The translations under genes and the position numbers were made by a program. The notes under the pieces were generated by a model. The model was not told the origin of the DNA. It worked only from the letters and a program-made list of their open reading frames with translations, and made no database searches. DNA of 64,000 bases, taken from contig JAHLWR010000016.1 of assembly GCA_019057815.1 (NCBI GenBank), forward strand, positions 21,959-85,958, given 5' to 3'. This document shows, piece after piece, positions 37,583-64,000 of the stretch. Each line of letters starts with the position of its first letter. Within the stretch, counting starts at the first letter, position 1. This DNA is from Candidatus Heimdallarchaeota archaeon. Its GTDB lineage: Archaea > Asgardarchaeota > Heimdallarchaeia > Heimdallarchaeales > Heimdallarchaeaceae.

Positions 37583-38104
37583 ATGATAAGTAGAAATTAC
37601 AAAATCTGTTTAGTTGGAGATCCAGGCGTTGGGAAAACGTCTTTAGCTCTCAGACAAGCTCATGGTACATTTCCTACTTCACATCACCCTACTCTGGGAA
37701 TTAATTTTGTTATTTGGAACACTATTAAAGATAACATCAGAATCAAATTAATAATCGCAGATTCAGGTTCTCAAGAACGCTTTTTATCTGTTTTACCCAC
37801 TTATTTCAAAAACTCACTTGCAGCTGCAGTAATTTATGATATTTCAAAAAAAGAGACTTTTATAAATTTGGATAATTGGATTAAAATTTTAAGTGAAAGT
37901 GTTAGCCAAATACCCTTTATTTTGATAGGTAACAAAAGTGACAAGAAATCAAAAAGAGAAGTTACGCCAGAGGAAGGAAAAAGATTTGCAGAGAAACACA
38001 AAACTGAGTATTTTGAAGTCTCAGCAAAGGAAAAGACCAATATGCGAGAAATGTTCTCAACAATAATAGAAATTGTTATGGAGAGAGACAAATCATTGGA
38101 ATGA
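37583..38104 (+). CDS. Rab-like small GTPase
   Basis: G1 GDPGVGKT, G2 PTLG, G3 DSGSQERF, G4 NKSD, G5 SAK. Confidence 0.92.
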   Translation: MISRNYKICLVGDPGVGKTSLALRQAHGTFPTSHHPTLGINFVIWNTIKDNIRIKLIIADSGSQERFLSVLPTYFKNSLAAAVIYDISKKETFINLDNWIKILSESVSQIPFILIGNKSDKKSKREVTPEEGKRFAEKHKTEYFEVSAKEKTNMREMFSTIIEIVMERDKSLE

Positions 38105-44619: not shown

Positions 44620-47328
44620 TTAAGTATTTGATTTGTTTTTTGCTGATGAACTCTTAGAAACAGTTTTCTTTGTTTTGGATGTAGGTTTCTTTGAAGTAGA
44701 TTTAGAGGTTGAAGATGGTTTTGTTATCTTTTTGGTTGGAGATTTCTTTGCTATGGGTTTTTTTTCTTCTGATTTTGTCTTGATTTCTTTTTTACTACTA
44801 GTTTTAGTTACTTTCTTAGTTGTAGTTTTTTTCGCTTGGGTTTTTTTTGCAGGTTTCTTAGTTTCTTTTTTAACAATAGGCTTTTTCTCTTTCTTTTCTT
44901 CTTCAACTATTTGCTCTTCTTTCTCATGAGCTTGGACGATATACAATCGCCCATTAACAAGTTCAATTTTTGCAGAGATCTCTTCTTTAAGTATCAAATC
45001 ATAAGTTAATTTCTCTACTTCTTCACTTGATAAGCCAATTCTTTCAGCAAATATATCCAAAGGAATAGATCCTACTTTTGAAAGACTCTCAATATACTTT
45101 TTCTTTAACATCTCGAATTTAATTTTTTCAGGAACATCCCTACCACTCAATATCATCGCTAAAGATTCATATGCTCCATCTTTAAAGGCATCAATTATTT
45201 TCGATATAATGTGTTTTGAAGCCCCATTTATATTGTATTCATCAATTGAATCGCAGAAGAGTTTTAGACTCTTTCCGGACATTTCTCCAATTATAGATAA
45301 ACCTGATATCCATGAATCGAACATAACAACTAATTCTATTATTCTATGCAATATTATCTCATTAGGTTTTTCTGTTTCTATTGCTTCATTGTAAAGTTTA
45401 ATAAGAATTTTGGCTATTATACTCATCATTTGAGGATCATCAGCACTGATTACGTTTAGAAGGCGTCTTAACTTCTCAACTACATTTATTTCATCTGTGT
45501 AAAGGTGCTTGACTATAAATGAGTCAATAATTTCCTCTGCGATTGGTAAAGAGCTATTTATGATTAACATTGAAGTCTTGAGATAATTCAGGAATTCTTT
45601 ATCGTCTATTGTCCACATACATTTATTTAACAGCTCTTCAAGACGTTCTCTGTAGTAGTTTCGTTTGTGTGCTGCGAGAAAAGTCACAATATCAGCTATT
45701 CTTTCTTCAGGTTTAAGTGCTATTACTTTTGCTAGTTTCACTAACAGAAGTTTGAATATCTTGTCAACTAATAGAGGATTGTTTTGTAAAGATAGTAAAT
45801 CAGAAAAAATAACTTCTACTCCCGATGAATTCAAAGATAATGCTCGATCTATAAACGACCCAATTATTTGCTCATCCGCGTCCATCGATTCAAAATCTGT
45901 CCATTCTAACTGATTTATTTGTTCTATTCCAGGAAGAGCAAAGTGTGCATTTTCACTAATAGATATTTCAGATTCAGGAAGGCTTTGGTTTTCAGTAACG
46001 CTTTCTTTAGGAGGAGGAGCAGGAATCGTATCTATATCTTTTGTTTCTTTAATGATGTCCATTTCAAACTCGTCAGTTAGACTTTCATCTACAATTTCAC
46101 TCAAGACAATATCTTCTCTTGAATCTTGCACAGTTACCTTAGAAGCGCTCTCTTCTAAATTAAATTGTTCTAATAGTTCTTCTTCTTTTACTCGTTCTTG
46201 TTCACTGATGTCTTCCGACAAACTTTCAGGTTCACCCAGTAGGTCTTCAACTTGATCATCTGATTCTCTTTGTCTAAATAAATTAACTAATTTGTCAGCA
46301 ACACCTTCTCTTCGCTTTCTGGGCTCTATACTAATTGATTCCAATGATACTCCTACAGTCTTCAAAATAGTTTCGAAAAACTCTTGAGATTGTTGATTTT
46401 CAACATCTAATTCTTCTATTATTACACGAATACCAGCTTCTCGTAATTTAGAAACAAGCTCTGTGTTCTTCTTTTCTATTATTATTGTGTCTACAGTCTC
46501 TTTTATCAATTCAACAATATTAATCAAGCTAGATTCAAAATTCATTTTGTTTAAAATAGCTTTTTCATAGACACTTAACTTTTCCTCAACCCAGAATGGA
46601 GATAAGAACACAATTTCACCAGTTGTTCTTTTAAGTGCTTCGCAAAAGCTTTCAGATTGAAATAAAATATATAAAGATACTAAGTCAGTTGGAACAATTA
46701 TAACAGCTGTTGCATTAATAATTCTCTTTGAAGCTTCACTGCAGAGTCTCATTTTTTCTATTTGCTCTATATCGATAATACCTGTTATCTTTTCTAACTC
46801 AGCTTCGATTGATTTAGAATTAACTTTCCCATCCTGTTTTCGAATTTCTATTTCTTTACCGATTAAGAACTGTCTAACAGGTATCTCTACATCACCATTT
46901 TTCATGTGCAGTATTCTTATTTCATCAAATATAGGAAAAATGAAATCTTCATCGAATACTGCTTTTGTGATTTCTCTCCAAGCTTTCAAGTAATTGTCAT
47001 TTCCTTGTTTGATATCTGTTGCAAAACGAGAAATCAAATAATTCAAGGTTGATAATTGTAAAGGGTTATAAAAATCGAAATATTGACCTAAAGCTTCGAA
47101 AACACCAAGAGATTCGATGTTGAGTTTAGCTTTTATTTCAATCAGACTTGTAAACTCGATGTGATATCTTAATATTTTTGAGGGGTCAGAATGGTGAATT
47201 AAAAAGTCACTAGAATTATTTGCAATCATAGAAAGTGCAATATCCCCTTTATGCAAAAGTTGTTCAACAAAGGGGCTTGTTCGAAACCCTACATTCACAA
47301 CTGCAATTTCCTGTTCTGATGACATCAA
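44620..47328 (-). CDS. Large protein: CofD/YvcK-like N-domain, acidic linker, helical solenoid, PCI-like wHTH, Lys/Thr/Ser-rich tail
   Basis: I.L..FAERIGLS.EEVEKL...LI....ISAKI (PCI wHTH); KKPAKKT tail; N-terminal pattern like degenerate CofD. Confidence 0.55.
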   Translation of the reverse strand: MMSSEQEIAVVNVGFRTSPFVEQLLHKGDIALSMIANNSSDFLIHHSDPSKILRYHIEFTSLIEIKAKLNIESLGVFEALGQYFDFYNPLQLSTLNYLISRFATDIKQGNDNYLKAWREITKAVFDEDFIFPIFDEIRILHMKNGDVEIPVRQFLIGKEIEIRKQDGKVNSKSIEAELEKITGIIDIEQIEKMRLCSEASKRIINATAVIIVPTDLVSLYILFQSESFCEALKRTTGEIVFLSPFWVEEKLSVYEKAILNKMNFESSLINIVELIKETVDTIIIEKKNTELVSKLREAGIRVIIEELDVENQQSQEFFETILKTVGVSLESISIEPRKRREGVADKLVNLFRQRESDDQVEDLLGEPESLSEDISEQERVKEEELLEQFNLEESASKVTVQDSREDIVLSEIVDESLTDEFEMDIIKETKDIDTIPAPPPKESVTENQSLPESEISISENAHFALPGIEQINQLEWTDFESMDADEQIIGSFIDRALSLNSSGVEVIFSDLLSLQNNPLLVDKIFKLLLVKLAKVIALKPEERIADIVTFLAAHKRNYYRERLEELLNKCMWTIDDKEFLNYLKTSMLIINSSLPIAEEIIDSFIVKHLYTDEINVVEKLRRLLNVISADDPQMMSIIAKILIKLYNEAIETEKPNEIILHRIIELVVMFDSWISGLSIIGEMSGKSLKLFCDSIDEYNINGASKHIISKIIDAFKDGAYESLAMILSGRDVPEKIKFEMLKKKYIESLSKVGSIPLDIFAERIGLSSEEVEKLTYDLILKEEISAKIELVNGRLYIVQAHEKEEQIVEEEKKEKKPIVKKETKKPAKKTQAKKTTTKKVTKTSSKKEIKTKSEEKKPIAKKSPTKKITKPSSTSKSTSKKPTSKTKKTVSKSSSAKNKSNT

Positions 47329-49704: not shown

Positions 49705-50931
49705 CTACTCTAATTTTGGAAATTTAGCAAGTTTACGTAATTTGGTTAACTCCTCTTGTTCCTTTCCAGCTTCTTCAGCAAAAACTATAATTTTACGGTA
49801 TAGTTTGTCCACAAAATCTTTGTTAACAGGTTTAATGCCGTGAGCTAAGATCGAATCGTTTCTATAACTTAATAAATTCTTTAACTCTTTGTCTTTTCTG
49901 AACAAAAAACCTAGAGAATCCTTTAGATCACAAAGTAGGTCATAACTAGCATGCAAACCAATCTTTATTACTCGACTTCGAGTTTTATACTCCTCATATT
50001 GCGAGATAACAATAGGTTGTAAACCTAACTCTAATAACCTCTCAGTATCAATATTACTAGTATCTAGAAGATAAGAAGTTTTAAGGCGAAATTGTGCAAT
50101 AAGTTCAGCACACCTGTACAATCTTGCTGTAGCATCGTCATATTTCTCTTCTTCCACTCGACGTTCGGTATTATTTAATAAATCAGCAATAAGAAAATAC
50201 TCTTTAGAGACTTTCTTATCTCTTGAATCAGATAATAGTTTAGAGAGGAAAAGCTTATTCTCAGCATATTCTTTACTAATGTTCTTTAGTTCGAGAAAAG
50301 CTGATTCATGATGGAATTTATCCCAAAGACGGTAAGCATTAATTAGAGCAGTATAGGTCTCACGTATATCATCATCAAAAATAATTATTTCATCCAGACA
50401 GTTTTGTGCAGTACTAAATTGGTAATGATTAAATGAATCATGTAGTTTGGCTATAAGTATCTTATCATAAGCAGAATAAAGATTTTGTTCTATTATGTGT
50501 TCGGTCCCAGAAATGATAAGTCCATGCTCACCTCTTTTACCAGAGATCAGACTCAGCTTTTTGTGGAAAAGAACAGAACAAATTGCTGCACTCACAGTCA
50601 TTGTTTTAGTTCCAGAAGTGTAATCAATGATGATCTCAGTGTTAGGAAAACGTGTGAGAGAAGAGGAGATTAGACGAAAACATTCATCAAAACTGTCAAT
50701 TTGCTGGATAATTATAAATTCATAATGAGAAAATTCTTTCTTCATTGTCTCGAAATAAAGTTTCTTAACAACATCAACTGTAGAATAACTCTGGTCAGAA
50801 CCAAAAAAAATAACCTTATCTGGACGAAAATGTAAGATGCAAGATAATAAGCCATGAGCTAAACTGGAGATACGACCCTGTTGATTAGAACCCACACCAG
50901 TACCAACGGTCATGAAAAGGACTCTTTGCAA
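49705..50931 (-). CDS. csm6: CRISPR-associated CARF-HEPN ribonuclease, TIGR02710/Csm6-like
   Basis: TVG, DYTSGTKTM (CARF); YDDATARLYR..E; RNDSILAHG (HEPN). Confidence 0.88.
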   Translation of the reverse strand: MQRVLFMTVGTGVGSNQQGRISSLAHGLLSCILHFRPDKVIFFGSDQSYSTVDVVKKLYFETMKKEFSHYEFIIIQQIDSFDECFRLISSSLTRFPNTEIIIDYTSGTKTMTVSAAICSVLFHKKLSLISGKRGEHGLIISGTEHIIEQNLYSAYDKILIAKLHDSFNHYQFSTAQNCLDEIIIFDDDIRETYTALINAYRLWDKFHHESAFLELKNISKEYAENKLFLSKLLSDSRDKKVSKEYFLIADLLNNTERRVEEEKYDDATARLYRCAELIAQFRLKTSYLLDTSNIDTERLLELGLQPIVISQYEEYKTRSRVIKIGLHASYDLLCDLKDSLGFLFRKDKELKNLLSYRNDSILAHGIKPVNKDFVDKLYRKIIVFAEEAGKEQEELTKLRKLAKFPKLE

Positions 50932-51061: not shown

Positions 51062-51769
51062 ACAAATTCACTGATTATTAACAAAGCTAGTTTGTATCAG
51101 TTTAAAAATTTTTTTAACGAGGGGGAGCAAAAAAAGTTACCTCCTTCTCTTTAACGAAGCTAGTTTGCATCTTCTGACACTATCTGGTTTAACACTACTA
51201 ATAGTAAGTTACCACCTCCTCTTTTGACGGAGCTAGTTTGTAACAACTATTGAAACCTTTTACGACGGCGATTTTGCTAGGTTACCACCTCCTCTTTTGA
51301 CGGAGCTAGTTTGTAACATCCATCAAGAAGAACTCTCTTACACAACTATACAAAAGTTACCACCTCCTCTTTTGACGGAGCTAGTTTGTAACCAGTTAAT
51401 TATCATGGGAAAATTAAAAAGAATTAAGGTTACCACCTCCTCTTTTGACGGAGCTAGAATGTAACAACAACAAGGAGGTGAAAGGGCAAAATGAGATTTC
51501 GCGTTACCACCTCCTCTTTTGACGGAGCTAGAATGTAACGGAGAATCAAAAAAGGGCGATGTGTGACGCTCTTTGGTTACCACCTCCTCTTTTGACGGAG
51601 CTAGAATGTAACGAAAATTGTTCAGATAGAAGCCGAGATGGCTTTCAAGTTACCACCTCCTCTTTTGACGGAGCTAGAATGTAACCCCTTACCTTCCTTT
51701 CAAGGGAGGTAAGGAGAACAGTAAAAAGTCTCGTTACCACCTCCTCTTTTGACGGAGCTAGAATGTAAC
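51062..51769 (-). CRISPR. CRISPR array 1: 8 intact 37-bp repeats plus 2 degenerate trailer repeats
   Basis: GTTACCACCTCCTCTTTTGACGGAGCTAG(TT/AA)TGTAAC at 51208, 51281, 51356, 51429, 51503, 51576, 51649, 51733; degenerate at 51136 and ~51062; leader on the right. Confidence 0.97.
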
Positions 51770-51880
51770 CGCGGGGATTCTGGTTCTAGTAAACGTTTTA
51801 TCAGTTTTCACTTTCACCTCGTATACTAGTTGTAGCGTACGCTATTTTCTCTTTCTCCCTCATTCTTAAAGTTTTTGCTG
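51770..51880 (-). promoter_or_regulatory. Leader of CRISPR array 1
   Basis: Minus strand AAAACTTTAAG (BRE/TATA) about 100 nt from the repeat; ACTAGAA-N11-GCG junction shared with the array 2 leader. Confidence 0.75.
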
Positions 51881-51964: not shown

Positions 51965-54883
51965 TTATTCTATTCTGAATAATGGATAATATTTTCTGTC
52001 TTTATTGTGATATTCATATAGTTTTACTGCTCTTGCTGTATTCAATTCGTATCCTATCATAAAGCTTAGAAAAATTGGCATTGCTCCATAAAAAAGTATT
52101 TTATCTGTTCCTTTTTCTTGAGAATAATCTCTTATCTTTGTAGCTATTGATTTTGCCATTTGATTTGCTTTTTCATCTGTAAATATAATGTCTCTACTTA
52201 TCCCTTCCTTTGGATGTATATGTATCCTTTTCCTATAATTAATATTATTTGTGTCTATATAATCTGATACAGCTTCTCTTATTGACTGAGCGACACTAAC
52301 TTCTATTGTTGTAATTGTTCCTTTCTCTTCATCACCTGGGATTATGTCTTCTTTTAACAACTCTGGAGCTTCAGCTAACTCTTGTAATGTTCTGTATATG
52401 TTTTCATTGTGTAATATCTCTAAGTTATATCCAGTTGTGCTTCTAAATATGAAACCAAATGCTAAAGTTAATATAATATGAACTTTTGGGTTGATTATTC
52501 TTAATTTTCTTATATTAGATATCTTAGAAAGACTGTCTCTTACTCTTTTTATGCACTCATAAACAAGTTCACTTTTCTCTTTAATTATCATCTTATCAAC
52601 TTCTTCAACTGCACTTGTTAAATCAAAGGCAAAATCTGTATCATTATTGATTTTTTGATGCTCTTTTGAAAATAACTGAATGTTAAAATACTTATCTTCA
52701 CCTTTTCTTTCATCTATTTCTGAGATCATCTGTTCAAAAATTCTTTGCATAGTGTCGATATTATGCTTTTTTTTACTATCTTCATCTTTTTCAAAAGTAG
52801 CAAAGGGTTTTATTAATGTATCAAACTTTTCAACACTCCAATTTTTCACTCTTTCTTTATTTATTTTATATAATATTGGAAAAATCTTGAATTGTTCTTC
52901 ATTTTCTATTAATAGTGCTTCTTTTAGAATGTTTTCCACTAGTGATGATTCTAAACTTTTTGGTGTAAGAAGTATAATTGCTCCATCACATTTTTTCATT
53001 TGTTCAATTAATAAGTCGCTATTTTCATATTCTACTAGTTCATATTCTAAACAAACATTTATACCCATAAACCTTAAAATCTCAGCTAAATTCGTCATTA
53101 TTTCTTTATCTTCGTAAATGAAGCAGCAAAAAATTGAAGGAGTTCCCATTTTCTCAATAACTTTACTTTCTTTCACTTTTTCAAGTTGAGTCTTACTTGT
53201 TTCTCTCATTATGATTTCAAATTGTTGAGATTTTATCCCTTCAGTAGGTATTAATTGAAATTCTGTAGTATTATTTGGTCTTGTTTTTGTAGATATTTTA
53301 GCGTAGTAAGTTATATTTGCTAAATTTTGTTCTCCTATGCTAGTAATTACTTTAAATAGCTTCTTTTCGTTTGGTTTTAAGATAAAATTGCTTGGTTCAA
53401 TATCTTTTATCGTAATTGCTTCTTTTGGTAATTCATTTTCAAAATTTTGATCTTGAGCAAGTTCCATTTGAAGGTGAGTGGATATTAACTCTCCTTCGCT
53501 ATCACCTATGTTTTGAATAGTCAAATGCCATTCGTGGTCAGTTTCTATTTGACCATCATTAGATATATCTACAATTAATAAATTTTTGCACTCTTCTTTA
53601 AGAATCATTGGTGTAAAACCTTTTTTTAGTTTTACTGAGACTTTTTTAGCAAAATTATATTTTCTTGATTCAACAACATCCCTTTGTACTATGTTAACAG
53701 CTAGTTCTATTTGTAAAGAGTCACTTTCAATAATAGAAGGATTAAGGGGTTTAAGAGTAAATAATCGTTCTAGGATATCTTGAGTAAAATAAAAATCACT
53801 AGAGAGATAATGTGGTTGATAAATTTTTTCTGGTTTTTCAAGTGAAGTAACATTATCTATCTGCAAAACTATTTTATTTATCTCTTCAGGTAATGGAATA
53901 AAACTTAATGAACATTGAATACTTTGATCTCTAAAGTCATCAATTGTAATAGTAACAAAATCAGCAATGCGATCAAGGAAATAATCAATATCAACTTCAA
54001 AAGGTAGTGACGAAGTGAGAAATTTAGTTACTACTTCATCTATTTCTTTTTCTAATTTACCGTTTCTTATACGAAGATCCATCTCTGTTTTGATATTTTT
54101 TGCTAAGACTTTTTCTATTTGACGACACATCATTTCTTGAAGGGTTTTGTTTTTCAACCAACTGGTAATATCCTTGTAAACTCCAACAGCTACATATTTG
54201 TCTTGGATAGTAGTGTAAAGTGCAAAATAATCAGCATTTTCAAAAATAAAAAATTCAGGAGCAGTATTGAACAGTTCAAGAGATACGTTCCGAATAGCTG
54301 AAAAAATACCTGCTATATTTGAATCATCTGCTGATAAATCTCCTTCCTCTTTCTTAACTCTAAAATCTGAATACTCTGGGAGTATACTAATAATAGGAAC
54401 TCCTTCGTGATATTCAAAAACAATAAACCATTGTAAACTTTTACCATAAGGAGTTTTAGGTTGTTTAAATGTTTTGGTATCCTTTACTGCTTCACTGAGC
54501 AAATCATCTGTACATTTCTTAGCTATCTGTTTAATGCGTTCATTAAGGAACATTTCAAATTGCGGGAAATGTTTATTTAATAATTGATTAAAATCAATCT
54601 CTCCTCTTCCAAAACTTTTGATATTTTCCTGGATAGTCTCTATTCTTTCATTAAGATTACTTTGCAATTCTTTAAGTTCTGGAATGATTTCTACTTGTTT
54701 TTCTGTTTGTTCTATGAAATTATTGAATTTTGCTATCTCTGAATTAAGACATTCATTTACTTCTTCAAGAGCAGTAATTTTGTCACGATTACGATAAACT
54801 TGACTAGATAATTGATTTAAAGCTTTAAGTATTTGATTTATAGTATAGTAAGCTTCTTTTATTTTGGGAAACCAAGAACTCAT
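51965..54883 (-). CDS. Multidomain TIR-SAVED effector with N-terminal coiled coil, longin-like and Ig-like domains
   Basis: TIR: IFCCF..ED...CDGAIILLTPKSLES; SAVED: ILFYGAMPIFLSFMIGYELN...LYEY...YYP; longin-like: WFIV..HEGVP...IAGIFSAI. Confidence 0.8.
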   Translation of the reverse strand: MSSWFPKIKEAYYTINQILKALNQLSSQVYRNRDKITALEEVNECLNSEIAKFNNFIEQTEKQVEIIPELKELQSNLNERIETIQENIKSFGRGEIDFNQLLNKHFPQFEMFLNERIKQIAKKCTDDLLSEAVKDTKTFKQPKTPYGKSLQWFIVFEYHEGVPIISILPEYSDFRVKKEEGDLSADDSNIAGIFSAIRNVSLELFNTAPEFFIFENADYFALYTTIQDKYVAVGVYKDITSWLKNKTLQEMMCRQIEKVLAKNIKTEMDLRIRNGKLEKEIDEVVTKFLTSSLPFEVDIDYFLDRIADFVTITIDDFRDQSIQCSLSFIPLPEEINKIVLQIDNVTSLEKPEKIYQPHYLSSDFYFTQDILERLFTLKPLNPSIIESDSLQIELAVNIVQRDVVESRKYNFAKKVSVKLKKGFTPMILKEECKNLLIVDISNDGQIETDHEWHLTIQNIGDSEGELISTHLQMELAQDQNFENELPKEAITIKDIEPSNFILKPNEKKLFKVITSIGEQNLANITYYAKISTKTRPNNTTEFQLIPTEGIKSQQFEIIMRETSKTQLEKVKESKVIEKMGTPSIFCCFIYEDKEIMTNLAEILRFMGINVCLEYELVEYENSDLLIEQMKKCDGAIILLTPKSLESSLVENILKEALLIENEEQFKIFPILYKINKERVKNWSVEKFDTLIKPFATFEKDEDSKKKHNIDTMQRIFEQMISEIDERKGEDKYFNIQLFSKEHQKINNDTDFAFDLTSAVEEVDKMIIKEKSELVYECIKRVRDSLSKISNIRKLRIINPKVHIILTLAFGFIFRSTTGYNLEILHNENIYRTLQELAEAPELLKEDIIPGDEEKGTITTIEVSVAQSIREAVSDYIDTNNINYRKRIHIHPKEGISRDIIFTDEKANQMAKSIATKIRDYSQEKGTDKILFYGAMPIFLSFMIGYELNTARAVKLYEYHNKDRKYYPLFRIE

Positions 54884-55326
54884 ATGATTTATGATTTCAC
54901 TTTAACATTTAAAAATATAGCTTTTTTTGTTGTATTTTTAAGAAAAAATAAATTCCTTTAGAAGAAGGACTGAAAACTATTTTGGATTAGTATATAAACT
55001 ACAATACATCAAGAAGGTTTGTGATCTTTTTTCCTTTAAGTATAAACATTACAAAACGAGAAAGAGGTTCTTTTCTTAAAAAGTGTTGATGTTACCTTGT
55101 TTATATAACAAAAAAGAGTAGATGTCCTACTAACTGATTGATACAACATATAGATTAGTGAATAGATAAAATAGTGAATAGATTTCTGATTATTTTGAGT
55201 GTCTTATATAGATTTTTGAAGCTAGAAAAATCAAAAAGGTACACTAGTATTATTTATATACAGTTTTTACTTAGTTACTATATCACATATGAAGTAGTTT
55301 TATTCATAACAAGTAAGGATCAAATA

Positions 55327-56538
55327 ATGGCTAGAATATTATTTATGACAGTTGGAACTGGTATTGGTGTAAACAAAGAGGAAAAGATCAAAAGTCTTGC
55401 TCATGGATTATTGGTCTGTATTGAACACCATCGTCCAGATAATGTAGTTTTTTTTGGTTCTGATCAAAGCATGGATACAATCGAATCTGTTAAAGAACAA
55501 TATTATGAGCGACATCAAGAAGAATTTACTGATTATGAATTTGTAGAAATAAAAAACGTTGATAACTTTGACGATTGTTTTTATATTTTGACTAAAAAAC
55601 TAGAAGAATATCAGCAAGAAGAAGTAATTATTGATTACACTTCTGGAACTAAAACTATGACTATAAGTGCTGCTATTGGTTCTATTCTTTATCATAGAAC
55701 ACTAAGTTCGATTTTGGGCAAGAGAGGAGAGAAAGGAATAGTTATCCCGAATACAGAAAAGATTACTGAACAGAACCTTTATTCATTCTATGATAAGCTG
55801 ATACTAAAAAAAGTTAAAGAGTTATTCAACAATTATAGGTTTGGCGCTGCTGAAAAAGTTCTTGAGGAAATAGTGATACAAGAAACAGAACAACAAGAGA
55901 ACTATAAAGCTTTGATTAAAGCTTATGATTTATGGGATAAATTCCGTCATCAAGAAGCTTTTACAGAATTAAAAAAAGTAACTAAAATATATGGAGAAAA
56001 TAAAGCTTTTCTAGGAAAATTACTTCAAACATCAGAAGAAAAAAGAGAGTTGTACTATATTGCAGATCTTCTAAACAACACAGAAAGAAGAATAGAGGAA
56101 GAAAAATATGACGATGCAACTGCAAGATCATACAGAGTAATAGAGCTAATTGCTCAATACAGATTAAGAGATAAGTATCAATTGATCTCAAGTGATATTA
56201 AGATTAAAAGACTAAAAGAATTAGGGTTAAAAAACCAAGATATAGAACAATATAAAAGTCCAGAGGGTGCTAATAAGAAAATAAGTTTACAGGATAACTA
56301 TAAACTTCTAAAAGCCCTGAAAGATGAACTGGGGGAGATGTCTATTAAGGATAAGGAAATGAAAAATCTCTTGCAAATAAGAAATAACTCAATATTAGCA
56401 CATGGATTACAACCAGTAGGAAAAGATGATGCAATCGATTTTTTTAATACAGCGAAACTCTATGCAGAGGAAGTAAGTACGGAAAAAGTAGATTTAGAAG
56501 AACTACGGAAAATAGCTCTCTTTCCAAAATTAGAATAA
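55327..56538 (+). CDS. csm6: CRISPR-associated CARF-HEPN ribonuclease, TIGR02710/Csm6-like (paralogue 2)
   Basis: MARILFMTVGTG aligns with the paralogue start; DYTSGTKTM; RNNSILAHG; start reassigned from 55174. Confidence 0.88.
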   Translation: MARILFMTVGTGIGVNKEEKIKSLAHGLLVCIEHHRPDNVVFFGSDQSMDTIESVKEQYYERHQEEFTDYEFVEIKNVDNFDDCFYILTKKLEEYQQEEVIIDYTSGTKTMTISAAIGSILYHRTLSSILGKRGEKGIVIPNTEKITEQNLYSFYDKLILKKVKELFNNYRFGAAEKVLEEIVIQETEQQENYKALIKAYDLWDKFRHQEAFTELKKVTKIYGENKAFLGKLLQTSEEKRELYYIADLLNNTERRIEEEKYDDATARSYRVIELIAQYRLRDKYQLISSDIKIKRLKELGLKNQDIEQYKSPEGANKKISLQDNYKLLKALKDELGEMSIKDKEMKNLLQIRNNSILAHGLQPVGKDDAIDFFNTAKLYAEEVSTEKVDLEELRKIALFPKLE

Positions 56539-56685: not shown

Positions 56686-57081
56686 CTATGTTGTTATGAA
56701 GGAACGAGATACAAAGTCTGTCCTCCACCCATTCAAGATACGGACCTGAGCAAGAACGAGTTTTCCCCAGTTGGTGAATCCTATCGCAGCATAGCGACTA
56801 TCCTTTGTTCGTGCTTCCCAGTCTTTTACCGTACCCATACGCTTATCGACTCTAAAAGTTCCTTTGATAATGCTTCGAACCCCAAGTGTCTTGAGGTATT
56901 GTTTAGGTGTTTGATAGTACTGTTCGATACACTTGTTTTGTAACGCATGTCCTACTTCTGTCACTCTCCCTTTCTTGTAGAGGAACTGTAGAATAAACTC
57001 GTCAGTACACCCTGGGTCATCGAATGGCTTGAAAGCGGAGTCTCTCCAATATTTTTGGTACAGTCGTCTTACCATGGGCAT
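56686..57081 (-). pseudogene. C-terminal fragment of an IS4/IS5-like DDE transposase
   Basis: Y...LGVRSIIKGTF..DKR resembles Y-x-R-x2-IE-x2-F-x3-K with the catalytic E lost; higher GC than the flanks. Confidence 0.55.
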
Positions 57082-57337: not shown

Positions 57338-58135
57338 TTAAGCAATTTCGAATTTGCCAAAACCATAAGAAGTTTTGCTACCAATTTGATAGAATTTAGC
57401 AAGAGACAAAAGCTTACCAATTTCATCATTCATTTTTTTGAGTTTGTAAGTGATTTCGCCAAAAATACCTTCTAATTTTATAGGTTTACCTTTACGTCTA
57501 TGTTGATTCCAAGAGAACAAACGAAGATCATAATTTTCAACAGTAACAGGAATATTTCTCCAGCTGCGATCCCAATGAATAGGGTAGCAACTAAGAAGAT
57601 GGAATTTGTTAAAACGATTGACACTTCGAACCAATGAATCGAGAAGAAGGGAAAAATCAACAAAAAGACAAGGCTTACCAGAACGATAGAAAGAAGTAGG
57701 AGAAATAAGACGGATACGGAGAAAAGGAGAAGGGGAAAGAGGGGAGAAAAAATCATTACGAATTTGAACATGAGAAAGAGAAGCATCTTTACCTGCAATA
57801 TGGAGATGCTTTATGCCAGAAAGAACATGAACAAATTCAGAAACAAGGTCCTCAAAAGAATCTAAAAAGAGAAAATGGGCGAAAATGCCAGAAGAATTAT
57901 GAGTAGTATAGAAAAAATAAGGACGAAAAGGAATAAGAGAATCACAAAAAACAGAGTGAAGAGAAGGGGAATCAAATAAATGAGAACCGAACCAACCACG
58001 AAGAACAGGACCATAATAAGGTAAATGAGAGAAAGAAGGAAAATCAATGAAAAAAGAAACATGAATGACTGAATGAGAAAGAAGCGATGAAAGAGAAGGA
58101 GAAAAAAACGAAGAAGAGGAAGAAGAAGGAGACAT
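57338..58135 (-). CDS. cas6: CRISPR endoribonuclease Cas6
   Basis: G..LRG.FG, RPY, SPT, GIFGEITY, C-terminal Gly loop IGSKTSYGFG; start reassigned to ATG 58135. Confidence 0.9.
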   Translation of the reverse strand: MSPSSSSSSFFSPSLSSLLSHSVIHVSFFIDFPSFSHLPYYGPVLRGWFGSHLFDSPSLHSVFCDSLIPFRPYFFYTTHNSSGIFAHFLFLDSFEDLVSEFVHVLSGIKHLHIAGKDASLSHVQIRNDFFSPLSPSPFLRIRLISPTSFYRSGKPCLFVDFSLLLDSLVRSVNRFNKFHLLSCYPIHWDRSWRNIPVTVENYDLRLFSWNQHRRKGKPIKLEGIFGEITYKLKKMNDEIGKLLSLAKFYQIGSKTSYGFGKFEIA

Positions 58136-58189
58136 AAAATGGAAAAAGAAAAGAAATATATCAAGTTTTAGATAAGCAAAGAGAAGAAA

Positions 58190-58293
58190 AAAAGAAAAGG
58201 TTAATAAAGAAAAAAAAGAAGAAGAAAGAAGAAAAAAAAAAGATAAGAAAAAGAGAAATGGAAAAAACAAGGACTAGAAGGAATTTCGTTGCG
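58190..58293 (+). promoter_or_regulatory. Leader of CRISPR array 2 (divergent from cas6)
   Basis: AAAAGGTTAATAAA about 93 nt upstream; ACTAGAA-N11-GCG immediately before the first repeat. Confidence 0.7.
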
Positions 58294-58476
58294 GTTACAA
58301 ACTAGCTTCGTCAAAAGAGAAGGTGGTAACGAAAAGTTTCTTTCCTGAGGGGATTGCAAAGGGCATGTTACAAACTAGCTTCGTCAAAAGAGAAGGTGGT
58401 AACATCCTTTGATTATGTTGTTCAAGTTTGGCTAAGTATGTTACAAACTAGCTTCGTCAAAAGAGAAGGTGGTAAC
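58294..58476 (+). CRISPR. CRISPR mini-array 2: 3 repeats, 2 spacers, opposite orientation to arrays 1 and 3
   Basis: GTTACAAACTAGCTTCGTCAAAAGAGAAGGTGGTAAC at 58294, 58367, 58440; 36-nt spacers. Confidence 0.95.
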
Positions 58477-58549
58477 CAATACGATTGATCAAGGAATCAG
58501 AATTATATAACAAAAACGATTTTTATGTGCAAATTCTTAGGTTAAAGCT

Positions 58550-59188: not shown

Positions 59189-62100
59189 ATGTACAGTAAA
59201 TTAAAAGAACAAGAAGTGGCATTACTTAAGACATTGATACAAGACAATAGTGAGAATTTAGACTACAATATTATAAATATTCCACGATCTACTGAATTTT
59301 TCATTAATCTTGAAATTGAATCAGATAAATGGAATTTAACACACATTAGTATTGTCACTAGAGCAGACCATCATAGTGAAATTATATTATTGCTAGCTTT
59401 TAATTTAGATGCAAGACGTTTAGTGTTATGTCTCTTAGATGATAATTATGAGATTAATATATACACACAGACTGATGATTCACAAATAATTTACATGAAA
59501 AGTCCTAATTTACTTGATGGTATTGTTATCAGTGATATAGAAACCGTTATAGTAAGTATTTTGTTGGACTCTATGCAGAAAGAACAAAAGAAATTTAGAG
59601 AGTTTTTTACATACTTTCAAAAAAATAATAACCTTCCTCCCATACGTTTCAACTTACTTAAAGAACTACTCCTAAATAAAAGGAGAACATTATTCTTACT
59701 ACATAACGCTTCTTGTACTATAGAACAGCTAATAACTTCACATAGGAATGCAAAGGGAAATTTATTTAGCTTACATTCCTTAAATACTAAAAGTGTCAAA
59801 ACTGATTATAGCATCTCTAGTTATTTGTATAGTTTCAACTTTAGTAATCTCACTGTAGGTTTCTACTTTTCTTTATCTTCAATAGAAATAGGAAAATACA
59901 AATTTTGCTCTATAAAAATAAGTCCAGCAAAGAGAGGAAGTTCTACTCTCACTTATACTTGTGACTTAACAACTTTAACTAATGTTTTTCAAGAAAAATC
60001 AACAACTCTATTTGATTTAAGTGCAAATACTAATTATCCTAAAATAGACAATAAAGATGATAAAAAAGCAGTAGCCATAATTTGCGATTTTCCTAACCCC
60101 ATAATTGTCAAATCAATTCCAGAAAAAGAATTGAATGCTATTATTGATTCATTTTCTATTATTGCAATTTATGCAAAACTTTCCAACAGATTGAATTTAG
60201 CTAAACTAGAGAATTTGTTAGGATTGAAAATAGAAAAAACTAATATCCCTTTTTGTACTAAAATACGTTCAGCTGCAACAATCAGTAAACATATCCTTAG
60301 AAATTATTTAGTCCAAAAACTTAATCTAGATTTATATATAATTCAAAAAAACATTAAAAAATCACACAATTTCCTACAAAACTACAAACAGACTTACTTA
60401 GGTGGAAAAGTTGAGTGCTTTATTCACGGACTAGTCGAAACTACACTTGAACAAAAAATCTATTATTTAGATTTTACTGCTCTTTATCCTCATGCAGCTT
60501 GGATTTGTGAAGCACTATGGCTTTATCTTGTTTGTTCAAAGAATGAAATACAAAAATACATTAGAAAAGATATTAGCAATGTTATAAAACGTATTAAATT
60601 GAGTGTTAATGAAATTATTGAGAGTATAATAAAAAAGAAACCTTTACAAAAAAGAATCTTTCAAGGATTGGTAGGAAATTGCACTATTCACAGTGACATA
60701 CTCCTACAATTACCTAGAGACTTTAAGAATAAGAAAGTTGATTTGTTAGTTAAAGGACAAATATCAACTACACTCGTTGATCTCTCTCTAGCTATTGTAA
60801 GGGAAATTATAATTCATAAAAGACAAATAGATGAAATCTTTAGTCAAATTTCTTTTATAAAAGCAGAATATATCGATTTTCCTGTTTCATCTGAATATGG
60901 CAAAGAATTTTTTTCAATTCTCTGTTTATTTCGTAAAGATATCAAAGCAGAAATAAGAGAAATAAAAGAAAACCTCAAAAAAGGGAATAGCGCTAAAATT
61001 ACTATTTTAGAGTGTGAGCAATTATTTGTAAAAATTTTGATGAATGCTTGTTGTGGAATAAGTGGAGAAGGGATGTTAAATGAAAAATATACAGGAATTT
61101 TCTGTAATCCAATAGTGGCAAATGCAATATCAACCATTGGTCGCGCTTTTATTACTGTTGCTGAAATAACGGTTGATCACATTAACGCGTTAAAAATATA
61201 TACAGATACAGACAGTATCTTTGTTCGAGCTACAAAGACACAGCAAGAATATTTGTTATCTGTTTTTCAAGAAACTATTTTACTGAAAGACGAAATAGAA
61301 GAGAAATATAAGGATGGAGATTATATTACTCACATTTACATAGCAGGTAAGAAGAAATATGGCTACAAGACAAGTAAAGGTAGAATAGTATTCACTACTC
61401 ATAGTAAGGGGCAGTACTTGACAGAACCCTTCAAGAAAGCTCTTAAAGAATCCTATAAATACCTTTTTACGCCTACCTTCACAGAAGATACAACAGATAA
61501 AGCAGGTGAGATAGCATCACAATATCATAGTTATTTACAGAATGTTACTCTAAGCAGTCAGAAAAGCAGTATCTATACGGGTTTAAGAAAATTCAATAAA
61601 AGAACAATTACTTCTTATACTTGGCAATGGGAAGGAATAACCATCTATGTTAAATTTAATCTTCCGAATGGAAGTTACCTTGTAACTAATACTAGACAAA
61701 TCACAAAAGGATTAACTGGGGAATATTTGAATATTACAAAAGGAAAGAACAAATTGATCTTTTTCATTACCATATCAATAGATGTTGATAAACTAATTAG
61801 TGATTTTATAAAAAAATTTGATACAACAAATGAGGATATATTATTTAAGAAACAAAAAACCACCAACTCGTTACAAGGGTTTTATGGTTCTAATAATACT
61901 TATTATCTACAATATCTCTTGAATGATTATATCAGTTTTGAACGAAAAAAAATTGTTAAATATTACAAAAATTATTGGCTAGATGTTTATTATGACTGTA
62001 AGATAAATAATAAAGAACCTTTAGGAAAGAAAGAATTACTCTTATGGGAACAAATAACAAATTATAATAATTTAGAAGAAATAAAGAAACAAGCAGCTTT

Positions 62101-62506
62101 ACTGTTACATTCTTGGTATTTCCAGGAGTCAAATCAATTGAGTTTTGAAAAATCAGTAAAAGAGATTAAAGATTTAGATTTAAACTTTCTTAACCATCCA
62201 ACTTATCAGCTCTATCAAAACATTCTCTCAGAAGTATGTAAGGGGGTAACTATTACTAAGATCATACAAAACTCTATTAGTAAAATAGTAGCAGGATTTC
62301 AAACACTTGATGTTCTTATTGACCAATTAGTTACTAAAATAGAGAATAAGGAACACATTAAAAGAAGGATGCAAAATTACTTTCAGTACAACGAGCACAA
62401 AATTACTCGAGATATAGCTGAATATAAAGAAACCTTCATAATTACAAAACCTCAAGATGACAAAGTTAATGATGAAGAAATCCAAAACATTAAAGAAAAA
62501 TCATAA
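59189..62506 (+). CDS. polB: Family B DNA polymerase, protein-primed/casposon-like, degenerate exonuclease
   Basis: YLGGKVE, motif A DFTALYP (aa 428), motif B KILMNACCG (aa 615), motif C YTDTDS (aa 671), KKY. Confidence 0.85.
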   Translation: MYSKLKEQEVALLKTLIQDNSENLDYNIINIPRSTEFFINLEIESDKWNLTHISIVTRADHHSEIILLLAFNLDARRLVLCLLDDNYEINIYTQTDDSQIIYMKSPNLLDGIVISDIETVIVSILLDSMQKEQKKFREFFTYFQKNNNLPPIRFNLLKELLLNKRRTLFLLHNASCTIEQLITSHRNAKGNLFSLHSLNTKSVKTDYSISSYLYSFNFSNLTVGFYFSLSSIEIGKYKFCSIKISPAKRGSSTLTYTCDLTTLTNVFQEKSTTLFDLSANTNYPKIDNKDDKKAVAIICDFPNPIIVKSIPEKELNAIIDSFSIIAIYAKLSNRLNLAKLENLLGLKIEKTNIPFCTKIRSAATISKHILRNYLVQKLNLDLYIIQKNIKKSHNFLQNYKQTYLGGKVECFIHGLVETTLEQKIYYLDFTALYPHAAWICEALWLYLVCSKNEIQKYIRKDISNVIKRIKLSVNEIIESIIKKKPLQKRIFQGLVGNCTIHSDILLQLPRDFKNKKVDLLVKGQISTTLVDLSLAIVREIIIHKRQIDEIFSQISFIKAEYIDFPVSSEYGKEFFSILCLFRKDIKAEIREIKENLKKGNSAKITILECEQLFVKILMNACCGISGEGMLNEKYTGIFCNPIVANAISTIGRAFITVAEITVDHINALKIYTDTDSIFVRATKTQQEYLLSVFQETILLKDEIEEKYKDGDYITHIYIAGKKKYGYKTSKGRIVFTTHSKGQYLTEPFKKALKESYKYLFTPTFTEDTTDKAGEIASQYHSYLQNVTLSSQKSSIYTGLRKFNKRTITSYTWQWEGITIYVKFNLPNGSYLVTNTRQITKGLTGEYLNITKGKNKLIFFITISIDVDKLISDFIKKFDTTNEDILFKKQKTTNSLQGFYGSNNTYYLQYLLNDYISFERKKIVKYYKNYWLDVYYDCKINNKEPLGKKELLLWEQITNYNNLEEIKKQAALLLHSWYFQESNQLSFEKSVKEIKDLDLNFLNHPTYQLYQNILSEVCKGVTITKIIQNSISKIVAGFQTLDVLIDQLVTKIENKEHIKRRMQNYFQYNEHKITRDIAEYKETFIITKPQDDKVNDEEIQNIKEKS

Positions 62507-62615
62507 TTTAATGAAAAAAGTATAGTGTGATCATGAAAACGACTAGATCCTATTTTATAAAAAACTATACAATTTGCACATTTCAAAGAGTTATGATTAA
62601 ATTTGTCAATTATCA

Positions 62616-64000
62616 GTTATCTCCTCTTCTTCTACTATAGTTAGAGAATAGTTATGGGATAGAAGGAGAATGAATCCGAAGTGTTATCATAAGTTATTAT
62701 CTCCTCTTCTTATTGAGCTAAAATGTAACTAGAGCTGATTCTGTCTATTTAACTCAAAATGTCTATACGTTACCACCTCCTCTTTTGACGGAGCTAGAAT
62801 GTAACCCTCTCTCAGCCACCCTCCCAAGAAGAAATTTTGGGTTACCACCTCCTCTTTTGACGGAGCTAGAATGTAACTTCTACTAGTTTTTACGAAGCTG
62901 CAAGGATAGAGTAGTTACCACCTCCTCTTTTGACGGAGCTAGAATGTAACTTATCAGGAGAACTGGCTGATAATCACAGAAACCCGTTACCACCTCCTCT
63001 TTTGACGGAGCTAGAATGTAACCTTCTCAAGCAGAAGCCAATCAATAATGACCTGCGCGTTACCACCTCCTCTTTTGACGGAGCTAGAATGTAACGCTTA
63101 AGTGGCTTCCCAAGAACTGATTTATAATCTTGTTACCACCTCCTCTTTTGACGGAGCTAGAATGTAACAAAATCAGAAAAGAAGTACAACACTGTCATGG
63201 AAGTAGTTACCACCTCCTCTTTTGACGGAGCTAGAATGTAACGACTCAAGAACGTCTTCGTTACGGAGCACTTTGTAGGTTACCACCTCCTCTTTTGACG
63301 GAGCTAGAATGTAACTTAATAAGGTGAGTTTTACAAAAACTGAATAATGAAGTTACCACCTCCTCTTTTGACGGAGCTAGAATGTAACGCCCTTGACATA
63401 TTCTTAAACAAATTGGTTACTTTAAGGTTACCACCTCCTCTTTTGACGGAGCTAGAATGTAACGCCCTTGACATATTCTTAAACAAATTGGTTACTTTAA
63501 GGTTACCACCTCCTCTTTTGACGGAGCTAGAATGTAACGTCTTTAATGTGCGGAGGATTGTGGACTGCAAGTTTTTGTTACCACCTCCTCTTTTGACGGA
63601 GCTAGAATGTAACGTGAATATCCTAACTTCTGCTCAATTAATTCTCCCCGTTACCACCTCCTCTTTTGACGGAGCTAGAATGTAACCTGATCAGTTGGGG
63701 TATAAAAGGTGGGCTCCAGATGTAGTTACCACCTCCTCTTTTGACGGAGCTAGAATGTAACGATTGCTTCTTGAAAAGGCCCGCAGAGTTTATCCTCAGT
63801 TACCACCTCCTCTTTTGACGGAGCTAGAATGTAACGTTTGGAGAAAAGTATAGTAAGTTAAGCGGAGAAAGATGTTACCACCTCCTCTTTTGACGGAGCT
63901 AGAATGTAACGGCACGTTCGGTAGAATGACCGCTGGTTTATTAGAAGTTACCACCTCCTCTTTTGACGGAGCTAGAATGTAACGTTTGGAGAAAAGTATA
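62616..64000 (-). CRISPR. CRISPR array 3: 17 identical repeats plus 2 degenerate trailer repeats; continues past the window end
   Basis: GTTACCACCTCCTCTTTTGACGGAGCTAGAATGTAAC from 62769 to 63983, spacers 35-39 nt; degenerate copies at 62693 and ~62616. Confidence 0.98.

What the first reader, a model, noticed from the sequence alone, without database searches (positions are those of the whole stretch)
51965..54883. TIR-SAVED fused to an Asgard longin-like domain and an Ig-like domain, TIR possibly inactive
Seen: coiled coil (aa ~1-135), longin-like (~150-290), Ig/CARDB-like (~440-560; LTIQNIGD...LKPNEKK.F), TIR (~580-720), SAVED (~735-972). Known: TIR-SAVED filaments degrade NAD+ on cyclic-oligonucleotide binding and need a catalytic Glu. 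Here the equivalent helix reads SSLVENIL, with Ile/Leu where the Glu usually aligns. Inference: a cOA sensor wired to GTPase/trafficking machinery as a scaffold-type TIR adaptor, conceptually between prokaryotic NADase TIRs and eukaryotic adaptor TIRs. I do not recognise this architecture as described.
Basis: partly seen in the sequence, partly recalled or inferred. Interest (0 to 1): 0.85.

Follow-up and report, generated by a model that had tools for sequence, protein, structure and literature searches.

The report
CRISPR signal sensor fused to longin domain
An Asgard (Heimdall-type) archaeon carries, inside a type III CRISPR locus, a 972-residue alarm-signal sensor of the TIR-SAVED family that has lost the residues needed to destroy NAD+ and instead carries a eukaryote-like longin domain, so it probably signals by assembling proteins rather than by chemistry.

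Summary
Window 51965-54883 (-) is one 972-aa ORF.

- **Longin:** AF2 pLDDT 79.5. VIA Z 12.6 to TRAPP Trs23 and 12.3 to a Lokiarchaeal longin domain.
- **TIR:** four independent alignments put Ile652 at the catalytic Glu (AbTir E208, MkTIR-SAVED E84), Leu648 at the alphaC Trp and Glu620 at the BB-loop Gly. The sister-species ortholog is the same.
the gene lies in a type III CRISPR locus with three arrays, two Csm6 and Cas6. Cas10 (HD + GGDD), Csm2, Cas7s and Cas1 sit on a 13-kb contig bounded by the same repeat. No CD-NTase was found.
- **Distribution:** only this genus (2 of 400 Asgard genomes) has the fusion. A 635-aa metagenomic protein has the N-terminal half alone.

Best reading: a cOA-sensing CRISPR ancillary protein whose pseudo-TIR and SAVED domains drive assembly, with the longin/Ig module as output. 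Any link to GTPases is inference only. This is a new variant of a known kind, with moderately high interest.

The parts
51965..54883 (-). Whole gene, 972 aa plus stop (P0001)
   Evidence: Intact ortholog (94% aa identity) in sister species G011 = BPTO01000026.1, a Candidatus Heimdallarchaeota MAG.
54479..54883 (-). aa 1-135: helical, heptad-rich (coiled-coil-like) N-terminus
   Evidence: Heptad scan: aa 12-110 above the 99th percentile of shuffles. Weak coiled-coil Pfam matches. Not modelled.
53996..54448 (-). aa 146-296: longin domain
   Evidence: AF2 pLDDT 79.5. VIA Z 12.6 to Trs23 (2j3t_D), 12.3 to a Loki longin (8yqg_A), 11.2 to Mon1-Ccz1. Foldseek best E 2.6e-5. 8 of 24 relatives hit Pfam Fuz_longin_1.
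53624..53989 (-). aa ~299-420: first Ig-like beta-sandwich
   Evidence: AF2 model m8deacc4b4c2d, pLDDT 60-76. VIA Z 8.2 (CssA pilin) and 7.8 (GAE domain), which are generic matches. Tandem PapD/ASH-like Foldseek hits.
   Evidence: Z 8.2 to a GH2 Ig-like domain; FixG-related, ApaG. Conserved in P0004.
52709..53143 (-). aa 581-~725: degenerate TIR domain
52928..52942 (-). aa 648-652 (LVENI): Leu648 at the alphaC Trp position, Ile652 (ATT) at the catalytic Glu position
   Evidence: AbTir W204/E208 roles from bioRxiv 10.1101/2022.05.07.491051.
51968..52681 (-). aa ~735-972: SAVED domain (cyclic-oligonucleotide sensor)
   Evidence: Cap4 SAVED 6vm6 E 3.4e-4.
51077..51807 (+). CRISPR array 1 (37-nt repeat, about 73-75 nt period), 158 nt from the gene's stop
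49705..50931 (-). Csm6-type CARF-HEPN ribonuclease 1
   Evidence: Pfam Csm6 HEPN 2.5e-35; TIGR02710 2.6e-58
55174..56538 (+). Csm6-type CARF-HEPN ribonuclease 2, divergent from the gene
   Evidence: Pfam 3e-33; TIGR02710 1.6e-61
57338..58270 (-). Cas6
   Evidence: Pfam CRISPR_Cas6 3.7e-14
58294..58479 (-). CRISPR array 2 (3 repeats, inverted orientation)
62605..64000 (+). CRISPR array 3, running to the contig end. The same repeat bounds contig C20, which carries Cas10 (HD, GGDD), Csm2, Cas7-like RAMPs, Cas1 and Cas6.

Best explanation
This is a type III CRISPR ancillary protein of the TIR-SAVED lineage. It has lost NADase chemistry and gained a 580-residue N-terminal module made of a coiled coil, a longin domain and two Ig-like sandwiches.

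Proposed mechanism:
1. The Cas10 complex encoded on the adjoining contig makes cyclic oligoadenylate when it meets target RNA. This is inferred from the intact GGDD motif and the shared arrays.
2. The SAVED domain binds that signal. This is inferred from homology.
3. Ligand binding drives head-to-tail self-assembly of SAVED, with TIR-TIR packing, as in solved TIR-SAVED filaments. This is by analogy.
4. No NAD+ is cleaved, because Ile, Leu and Glu replace the catalytic Glu, the alphaC Trp and the BB-loop Gly. This is shown at sequence level only.
5. Assembly instead clusters the longin/Ig modules into a multivalent platform that captures or sequesters a partner protein. A small GTPase or its regulator is the obvious candidate class, and this step is pure inference.

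The two Csm6 RNases in the same locus would supply the enzymatic arm of the response.
For: - **Family membership:** TIR-SAVED membership is collinear over both domains (PDLC02012 E 1.6e-27; SAVED 2.5e-22).
- **CRISPR context:** arrays lie 158 nt downstream and further along. Two Csm6 and Cas6 flank the gene.
- **Signal source:** contig C20 is bounded by the same repeat and carries Cas10 with HD and GGDD, Csm2, Cas7s and Cas1. No SMODS/CD-NTase was found in the 95%-complete genome.
- **Missing catalytic residues:** Ile652, Leu648 and Glu620 sit at the Glu, Trp and Gly positions. The literature reports E84Q (MkTIR-SAVED) and E208A and G174A (AbTir) as inactive or nearly so. Ile652 is encoded by ATT, at least two changes from a Glu codon, and the residue is shared by the ortholog.
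- **Gene is maintained:** it is intact in two species. About 5 stop codons would be expected from 90 random substitutions, P(0) about 0.007.
- **Longin fold:** well supported.
- **N-terminal half is a unit of its own:** it occurs alone in P0004, 635 aa, E 1.4e-6 over aa 8-538.
Against: - Nothing biochemical has been tested: no cOA binding, no assembly, no partner.
- The TIR part was not modelled in 3D, so a nearby acidic residue (Glu650, Glu655) reaching the pocket cannot be excluded.
- dN/dS against the ortholog is 0.58 overall (26 synonymous, 64 non-synonymous changes). It is above 1 in the coiled coil and the first Ig domain on very few changes. This fits relaxed constraint as well as fast defence-gene evolution.
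- The fusion occurs in one genus only.
- No GTPase gene is adjacent. The nearest Ras-family gene is 14 kb away.
- The Cas10 operon is on another contig, so physical linkage is inferred from the shared repeat.
Confidence: 0.45

Rival explanations
1. It is still an active cOA-triggered NADase. A different acidic residue (Glu650 or Glu655), or a residue from a neighbouring protomer, completes the active site. The N-terminal module only localises or regulates the enzyme.
For: The TIR-SAVED unit is collinear with the family model. Glu650 lies two residues before the canonical position. TIR dN/dS is 0.38, the second lowest of the domains. Known TIR active sites are composite between protomers.
Against: Three hallmark positions are changed together (Glu to Ile, Trp to Leu, BB-loop Gly to Glu) in four alignments. 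A residue at i-2 on a helix faces the other side. In AbTir, E208A is dead and even E208D is reduced. Glu at W+7 also occurs in canonical TIRs that keep the W+4 Glu, for example L029.
Confidence: 0.2
2. It is a non-enzymatic cOA buffer or decoy, or a decaying relic. The SAVED domain soaks up or slowly cleaves cOA and so tempers the two Csm6 RNases. The dead TIR and the N-terminal half have no output of their own.
For: No recognisable catalytic domain remains. Overall dN/dS is 0.58. The locus is rich in rearrangement and mobile-element traces. SAVED filaments with ring-nuclease activity are reported for SAVED-Lon (title and abstract).
Against: The 2.9-kb frame is kept open in two species against an expectation of about 5 stops. 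A buffer would not need 580 extra residues. Those residues form folded domains that also exist as a stand-alone protein elsewhere.
Confidence: 0.22
3. The N-terminal module is the input rather than the output. The longin/Ig part senses a cellular or viral protein (or the state of a GTPase) and gates SAVED/TIR assembly, so the protein integrates two signals.
For: Longin and roadblock domains are nucleotide-state readers of small GTPases in solved complexes that match the model: MglB, Mon1-Ccz1, TRAPP, Ragulator. The stand-alone relative P0004 sits next to a STAND-type NTPase gene.
Against: With a dead TIR there would be no downstream activity to gate. There is no evidence for any partner.
Confidence: 0.08

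Closest known systems
TIR-SAVED effectors (Microbacterium ketosireducens TIR-SAVED, PDB 7QQK; CRISPR-associated TIR-SAVED found in seven type III loci, PMC11229360)
   Same: TIR followed by SAVED, collinear with the family model. Association with a cyclic-oligoadenylate-producing system. Co-occurrence with CARF effectors in type III loci, as described in PMC11229360.
   Different: 972 aa instead of about 430. It has a 580-aa N-terminal extension. The catalytic Glu (E84), the alphaC Trp and the BB-loop Gly are all replaced. Sequence is very distant: 7qqk was not found by single-sequence phmmer at E<=1.
TSR1, TIR-SAVED-Crn4 (bioRxiv 10.64898/2026.09.16.751991)
   Same: A CRISPR-associated TIR-SAVED that carries an extra domain which changes its quaternary behaviour.
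   Different: The TSR1 extra domain is a C-terminal ring nuclease and its TIR is an active NADase. Here the extra module is N-terminal and non-enzymatic (longin/Ig), and the TIR lacks the catalytic residues.
Longin domains of Asgard archaea and eukaryotic GEF/GAP complexes (Lokiarchaeal Roadblock-Longin 8yqg; TRAPP Trs23/Bet5; Mon1-Ccz1; Fuzzy-Inturned)
   Same: Same fold over the whole domain: Z 12.6-11, 127-134 residues aligned. Relatives of this domain hit Pfam Fuz_longin_1 and Intu_longin_1.
   Different: Those proteins act on small GTPases or in vesicle coats. None is fused to a cyclic-nucleotide sensor. P0001 itself gives no Pfam longin hit.
Asgard TPR-longin paralog family (e.g. L010, 623 aa: TPR_12/MalT-like TPR plus a C-terminal longin)
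   Same: The closest sequence relatives of the longin domain, up to 30% identity. Present in 346 of 400 genomes of the phylum, with many copies per genome.
   Different: There the longin domain is C-terminal to a TPR solenoid. Here it is embedded between a coiled coil and Ig-like domains, and it has a longer beta2-alpha1 loop.
Non-catalytic adaptor TIRs of animals (MyD88, MAL)
   Same: They lack the catalytic Glu, and TIR is used for cooperative assembly. This is established knowledge; the profile also matches MyD88 and MAL chains.
   Different: No evidence of common descent beyond the TIR superfamily. This TIR descends from a SAVED-fused prokaryotic lineage.
P0004, a 635-aa metagenomic protein (loci L005/L006)
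   Same: Coiled coil, longin and two beta-sandwiches, aligned over aa 8-538 (21% identity, E 1.4e-6).
   Different: It ends after the second sandwich, with no TIR-SAVED. It has an extra ~100-aa N-terminus and sits next to a STAND-like NTPase gene.

Membership tests
TIR-SAVED cOA-activated NADase effectors | C-terminal SAVED domain | tested here: met
   PF18145 E 2.5e-22; NF033611 E 1.8e-21 covering 27-259 of 261
TIR-SAVED cOA-activated NADase effectors | TIR domain directly N-terminal to SAVED, collinear with the family model | tested here: met
   PDLC02012 aa 581-970 to positions 11-389 of 404, E 1.6e-27. Pfam TIR_2 reaches only 24.5 bits (cut-off 28).
TIR-SAVED cOA-activated NADase effectors | Catalytic Glu on helix alphaC (E84 in MkTIR-SAVED, E208 in AbTir) | tested here: not met
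   Ile652 occupies the column in four alignments. The ortholog is identical there.
TIR-SAVED cOA-activated NADase effectors | alphaC aromatic residue (AbTir W204) and BB-loop Gly (AbTir G174) | tested here: not met
   Leu648 and Glu620 at these columns. Residue roles.
TIR-SAVED cOA-activated NADase effectors | Genomic association with a cyclic-oligonucleotide synthase (CD-NTase or Cas10) | tested here: met
   Type III locus. Cas10 with GGDD lies on contig C20, bounded by the same CRISPR repeat. Linkage across the contig break is inferred.
TIR-SAVED cOA-activated NADase effectors | cOA binding, ligand-induced filament, NAD+ cleavage | not testable with these tools
   Needs purified protein.
Longin domain | beta2-alpha-beta3-alpha-alpha topology without the N-terminal helix of roadblock | tested here: met
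   E5-12, E17-22, H40-60, E66-70, E75-81, E85-91, H101-118, H122-126, H130-145
Longin domain | Whole-domain structural match to solved longin domains | tested here: met
   2j3t_D Z 12.6 (128 aa, 2.8 A); 8yqg_A Z 12.3 (131 aa); 9rs7_A Z 11.2. Roadblock/MglB hits cover only residues 1-120.
Longin domain | Sequence-family match (Pfam Fuz_longin_1 / Intu_longin_1 / Sybindin) | tested here: inconclusive
   P0001 itself has no hit. 8 of 24 aligned relatives hit Fuz_longin_1 (best E 2.7e-5) and 4 hit Intu_longin_1.
Longin domain | Binds or regulates a small GTPase, SNARE or coat | not testable with these tools
   No partner identified.
Ig-like / CARDB beta-sandwich | Beta-sandwich fold | tested here: met
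   Two sandwiches, pLDDT 60-76. VIA Z about 8, within the range the tool calls common.
Ig-like / CARDB beta-sandwich | Match to Pfam CARDB | tested here: inconclusive
   No CARDB hit at E<=1. The motif resemblance is by eye only.
Scaffold-type (non-catalytic) TIR | Absence of the catalytic Glu with a retained TIR fold | tested here: inconclusive
   Glu is absent by alignment. The TIR fold was not modelled here.

The most novel reading that the evidence does not exclude
A wholly non-enzymatic, cyclic-oligoadenylate-triggered polymerising scaffold. In a Heimdall-type Asgard archaeon, CRISPR alarm signalling would be read out by clustering a eukaryote-like longin/Ig module that engages the cell's small-GTPase or membrane machinery. 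That would be a prokaryotic example of a TIR working as an assembly adaptor rather than an enzyme, arising inside the lineage closest to eukaryotes.
Probability: 0.2. Interest if true: 0.9.

Novelty: new variant of a known kind. Interest (0 to 1): 0.62.

Why it matters
All CRISPR- and CBASS-associated TIR effectors that I found described (MkTIR-SAVED, TSR1, Cat1) work by cleaving NAD+. A member that keeps the sensor and the assembly domains, has lost the catalytic residues and has gained a protein-interaction module would show that cyclic-oligoadenylate signalling can act through scaffolding alone.

The added module is a longin domain, a hallmark of eukaryotic GTPase regulation that is expanded in Asgard archaea. 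The protein therefore offers a concrete, testable link between prokaryotic immune signalling and eukaryote-like cell biology. It would also be a natural example of the shift from enzyme TIR to adaptor TIR.

If it turns out to be an odd NADase or a decaying gene, it is only a curiosity of one genus.

Tried and rejected
- **Homolog searches.** The word-index search with the TIR-SAVED half alone found nothing. With the whole protein it found only the 95% ortholog.
- **First AF2 run.** aa 136-580 with 4 sequences gave pLDDT below 50 for the longin part, so that part was not used for fold search. The domain was refolded with 24 relatives.
- **Complex prediction.** Two copies of aa 1-300 gave no verdict (score 0.00). 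This is no evidence either way.
- **P0003 and L093 as natural domain shuffling.** P0003 is aa 1-122 joined to a Csm6 HEPN domain. L093 holds a 306-aa coiled coil plus longin only. I considered and rejected both as evidence. Each contig is an inverted junction between the gene's 5' part and nearby plus-strand sequence (window 54523|55972 and 53995|56572). They are either local inversions or chimeric assemblies.
- **Mu-adaptin/delta-COP-like arrangement (longin plus mu-homology domain).** Only delta-COP at Foldseek rank 45 (prob 0.60, TM 0.14), and no such row among the 50 shown by VIA. Not supported, and not excluded given the model quality.
- **CBASS origin of the signal.** No SMODS match in the genome.
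- **Roadblock rather than longin.** hhalign against the genome's own Robl_LC7 paralogs gave only 57% probability. Roadblock structures cover only the first 120 residues of the model.
Full report
**The gene.** Window 51965-54883 on the minus strand is a single open frame of 972 codons starting with ATG. The frame opens only five codons upstream of that ATG (978-aa open frame). The region is AT-rich (GC 0.28-0.29 against about 0.32 for the window).

**C-terminal half.** Pfam finds SAVED at aa 794-971 (E 2.5e-22). NCBIfam's SAVED model covers aa 739-971, nearly end to end (E 1.8e-21). Pfam TIR_2 matches aa 584-675 at E 4.2e-5, below its cut-off. However, the PADLOC model built on TIR-SAVED effectors aligns collinearly from aa 581 to 970 (positions 11-389 of 404, E 1.6e-27). 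The two domains therefore descend together from the TIR-SAVED lineage. Against solved structures, the SAVED part matches Cap4 (6vm6, E 3.4e-4) and the TIR part weakly matches a bacterial TIR (7uxr, E 0.13).

**The catalytic site.**
- Single-sequence alignment to 7uxr, a MAFFT alignment with 15 TIR domains taken from other Asgard genomes, and an HMM built from those 15 without the query all agree.
- They place Leu648 on the conserved alphaC Trp, Ile652 on the Glu four residues later, and Glu620 on the BB-loop Gly.
- A profile of the same alignment matches AbTir, BtTir, Cat1, SARM1, plant TIRs and 7qqk. Its conserved Glu column falls on the Glu of AbTir's WTNYE motif.
- That Glu (E208) is the key catalytic residue. 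E208A is inactive. W204 stacks on the substrate analogue. G174A has little or no activity (bioRxiv 10.1101/2022.05.07.491051).
- In the solved TIR-SAVED the equivalent E84Q is dead (bioRxiv 10.1101/2022.05.04.490601).
- Ile652 is encoded by ATT, at least two changes away from a Glu codon, and the sister-species protein is identical in this stretch. This is not a sequencing slip.
- Glu650 lies two residues upstream, on the other face of a helix.

**N-terminal half.** No family library or PDB sequence search recognises aa 1-580. An exhaustive HMMER search of 1.84 billion representatives found only three proteins:
- the 94-95% ortholog;
- a 310-aa protein that shares aa 1-122;
- P0004, a 635-aa metagenomic protein aligned over aa 8-538 at 21% identity.

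P0004 ends just after the second beta-sandwich and has no TIR-SAVED.

*Longin domain.* A weak hit in a sister-family genome led to a TPR protein with a related C-terminal domain. A profile of this domain then matched 346 of 400 genomes of the phylum, often ten or more times per genome. Most matches lie at the C-end of 640-740-aa frames; the one checked (L010) is TPR plus longin. Of 24 aligned members, 8 hit Pfam Fuz_longin_1 (best E 2.7e-5) and 4 hit Intu_longin_1. Folding aa 146-296 on that alignment gave pLDDT 79.5 and pTM 0.74, with the longin strand and helix order. Structure matches:
- Foldseek returned GATOR1, Fuzzy, MglB, Asgard Roadblock3, Ragulator and TRAPP (best E 2.6e-5).
- VIA-align gave Z 12.6 to Trs23, 12.3 to the longin domain of a Lokiarchaeal Roadblock-Longin protein, and 11-11.2 to Mon1-Ccz1 and Lst4, over 123-134 residues.
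- Roadblock proteins covered only the first 120 residues.

*Ig-like domains.* The earlier, shallower model of aa 136-580 is poor for the longin part. For aa ~299-546 it reaches pLDDT 60-76 and shows two beta-sandwiches. They match Ig-like domains of pilins, PapD-like chaperones, ASH/SPD-2, GH2 enzymes and GAE/appendage domains at Z about 8. The tool itself rates that level as common. 'Ig-like' therefore stands, while 'CARDB' is unproven.

*Coiled coil.* aa 12-110 show heptad periodicity above the 99th percentile of shuffled sequence.

**Context.** The gene lies in a CRISPR locus.
- A 37-nt repeat array ends 158 nt beyond its stop (51077-51807). A short inverted array lies at 58294-58479. A long array runs from 62605 to the end of the contig.
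- Two TIGR02710-type Csm6 genes (CARF, 6H, HEPN) flank the gene, and Cas6 follows.
- The window holds no Cas10. The genome's only Cas10 match is on contig C20 (13.2 kb), which begins and ends in the same repeat.
- C20 encodes Cas10 with HD and GGDD motifs, Csm2, several Csx7/Csm3-like and Csx10-like RAMPs, Cas1 and a second Cas6.
- No CD-NTase (SMODS) was found in the 95%-complete genome.
- CRISPR-associated TIR-SAVED is already known: seven loci in PMC11229360, and TSR1.

**Distribution and constraint.** Among 400 genomes of the phylum, only the window's genome and one congener carry the N-terminal half or a full TIR+SAVED match. The congener is BPTO01000026.1, labelled Candidatus Heimdallarchaeota archaeon 8H_bin2, and its locus is syntenic. 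The two genes differ by 26 synonymous and 64 non-synonymous changes (dN/dS 0.58; TIR 0.38, SAVED 0.61, longin 0.38). Random substitution would have produced about five stop codons (P of none about 0.007). The frame is therefore maintained, though under weak or diversifying constraint.

**Interpretation.** I read this as a cOA-sensing ancillary protein that keeps the sensor (SAVED) and the assembly surface (TIR), has lost NAD+ chemistry, and presents a longin/Ig module as its output.
- Shown here: domain identities, the missing residues, and the CRISPR context.
- Inferred: cOA binding, ligand-driven assembly, and above all any partner of the longin module.
- Rivals: an unusual but active NADase; a cOA buffer or decaying gene; or a two-input sensor.

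No paper in the searchable library holds both 'longin' and 'SAVED domain'.

**Earlier notes of this scan.** One note proposed a CRISPR locus with no Cas10, Cas7 or Cas1 within 14 kb. My search shows these genes on the repeat-bounded contig C20, so the locus is probably an ordinary type III system split by the assembly. Other notes call the 1105-aa neighbour a PolB and describe a Rab-like GTPase at 37583. I confirmed only the Ras-family hit.

Noticed in passing
window 59189-62506 (+): A 1105-aa ORF between the inverted array 2 and array 3. It has no hit in Pfam, NCBIfam or PADLOC. An earlier scan note calls it a casposon-like PolB. In the sister species this segment is inverted relative to the rest of the locus.
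   Followed up: partly
window 56686-57081 (-): A 131-aa ORF between Csm6-2 and cas6. It has no family hit. Its protein-language features resemble IS4/DDE transposase fragments (score 0.95, a lead only). An 87%-identical DNA copy lies on contig C20 near its cas6.
   Followed up: partly
L007 (1240 bp) and L093 (2112 bp), metagenome contigs: Both join the 5' part of this gene (down to window 54523 and 53995) in inverted orientation to plus-strand sequence at 55972 and 56572. This gives open frames of 310 aa (coiled coil plus Csm6 HEPN) and 306 aa (coiled coil plus longin). They are either local inversions in related strains or chimeric assemblies.
   Followed up: yes
L007:1109-1240; own genome contigs C1, C5, C26, C27, C30, C43, C44, C48: A ~134-bp element after the Csm6-2 stop in L007 is repeated at 82-91% identity on at least eight contigs of the window's genome. 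It looks like a miniature mobile element.
   Followed up: no
phylum-wide; e.g. L010 (G013:C14), own genome C27:85287, C33:125225, C40:52899: A large paralogous family of ~640-740-aa frames with a C-terminal longin domain (TPR plus longin in the one checked, L010). It is present in 346 of 400 genomes of the phylum, with ten or more copies in some.
   Followed up: partly
window 63352-63501: Two consecutive repeat-spacer units of array 3 are 100% identical, which is a duplicated spacer.
   Followed up: no
window 51770-51807 and L053:278-299: The sequence just after the last repeat of array 1 (CGCGGGGATTCTGGTTCTAGT...) recurs after the last repeat of the short array at the start of contig C20. The array-flank sequence is duplicated.
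   Followed up: no
window 37583-38104 (+) and 44620-47328 (-): A Ras/Rab-family small GTPase (Pfam Ras E 3.7e-42) and a 902-aa protein with a PCI domain (E 6.8e-6). Both are eukaryote-signature genes, 5-14 kb from the CRISPR locus.
   Followed up: no
own genome C33:33504-34151 (L002): A second SAVED-domain protein (515-aa ORF) lies elsewhere in the genome. It matches only the SAVED half of the TIR-SAVED model.
   Followed up: no
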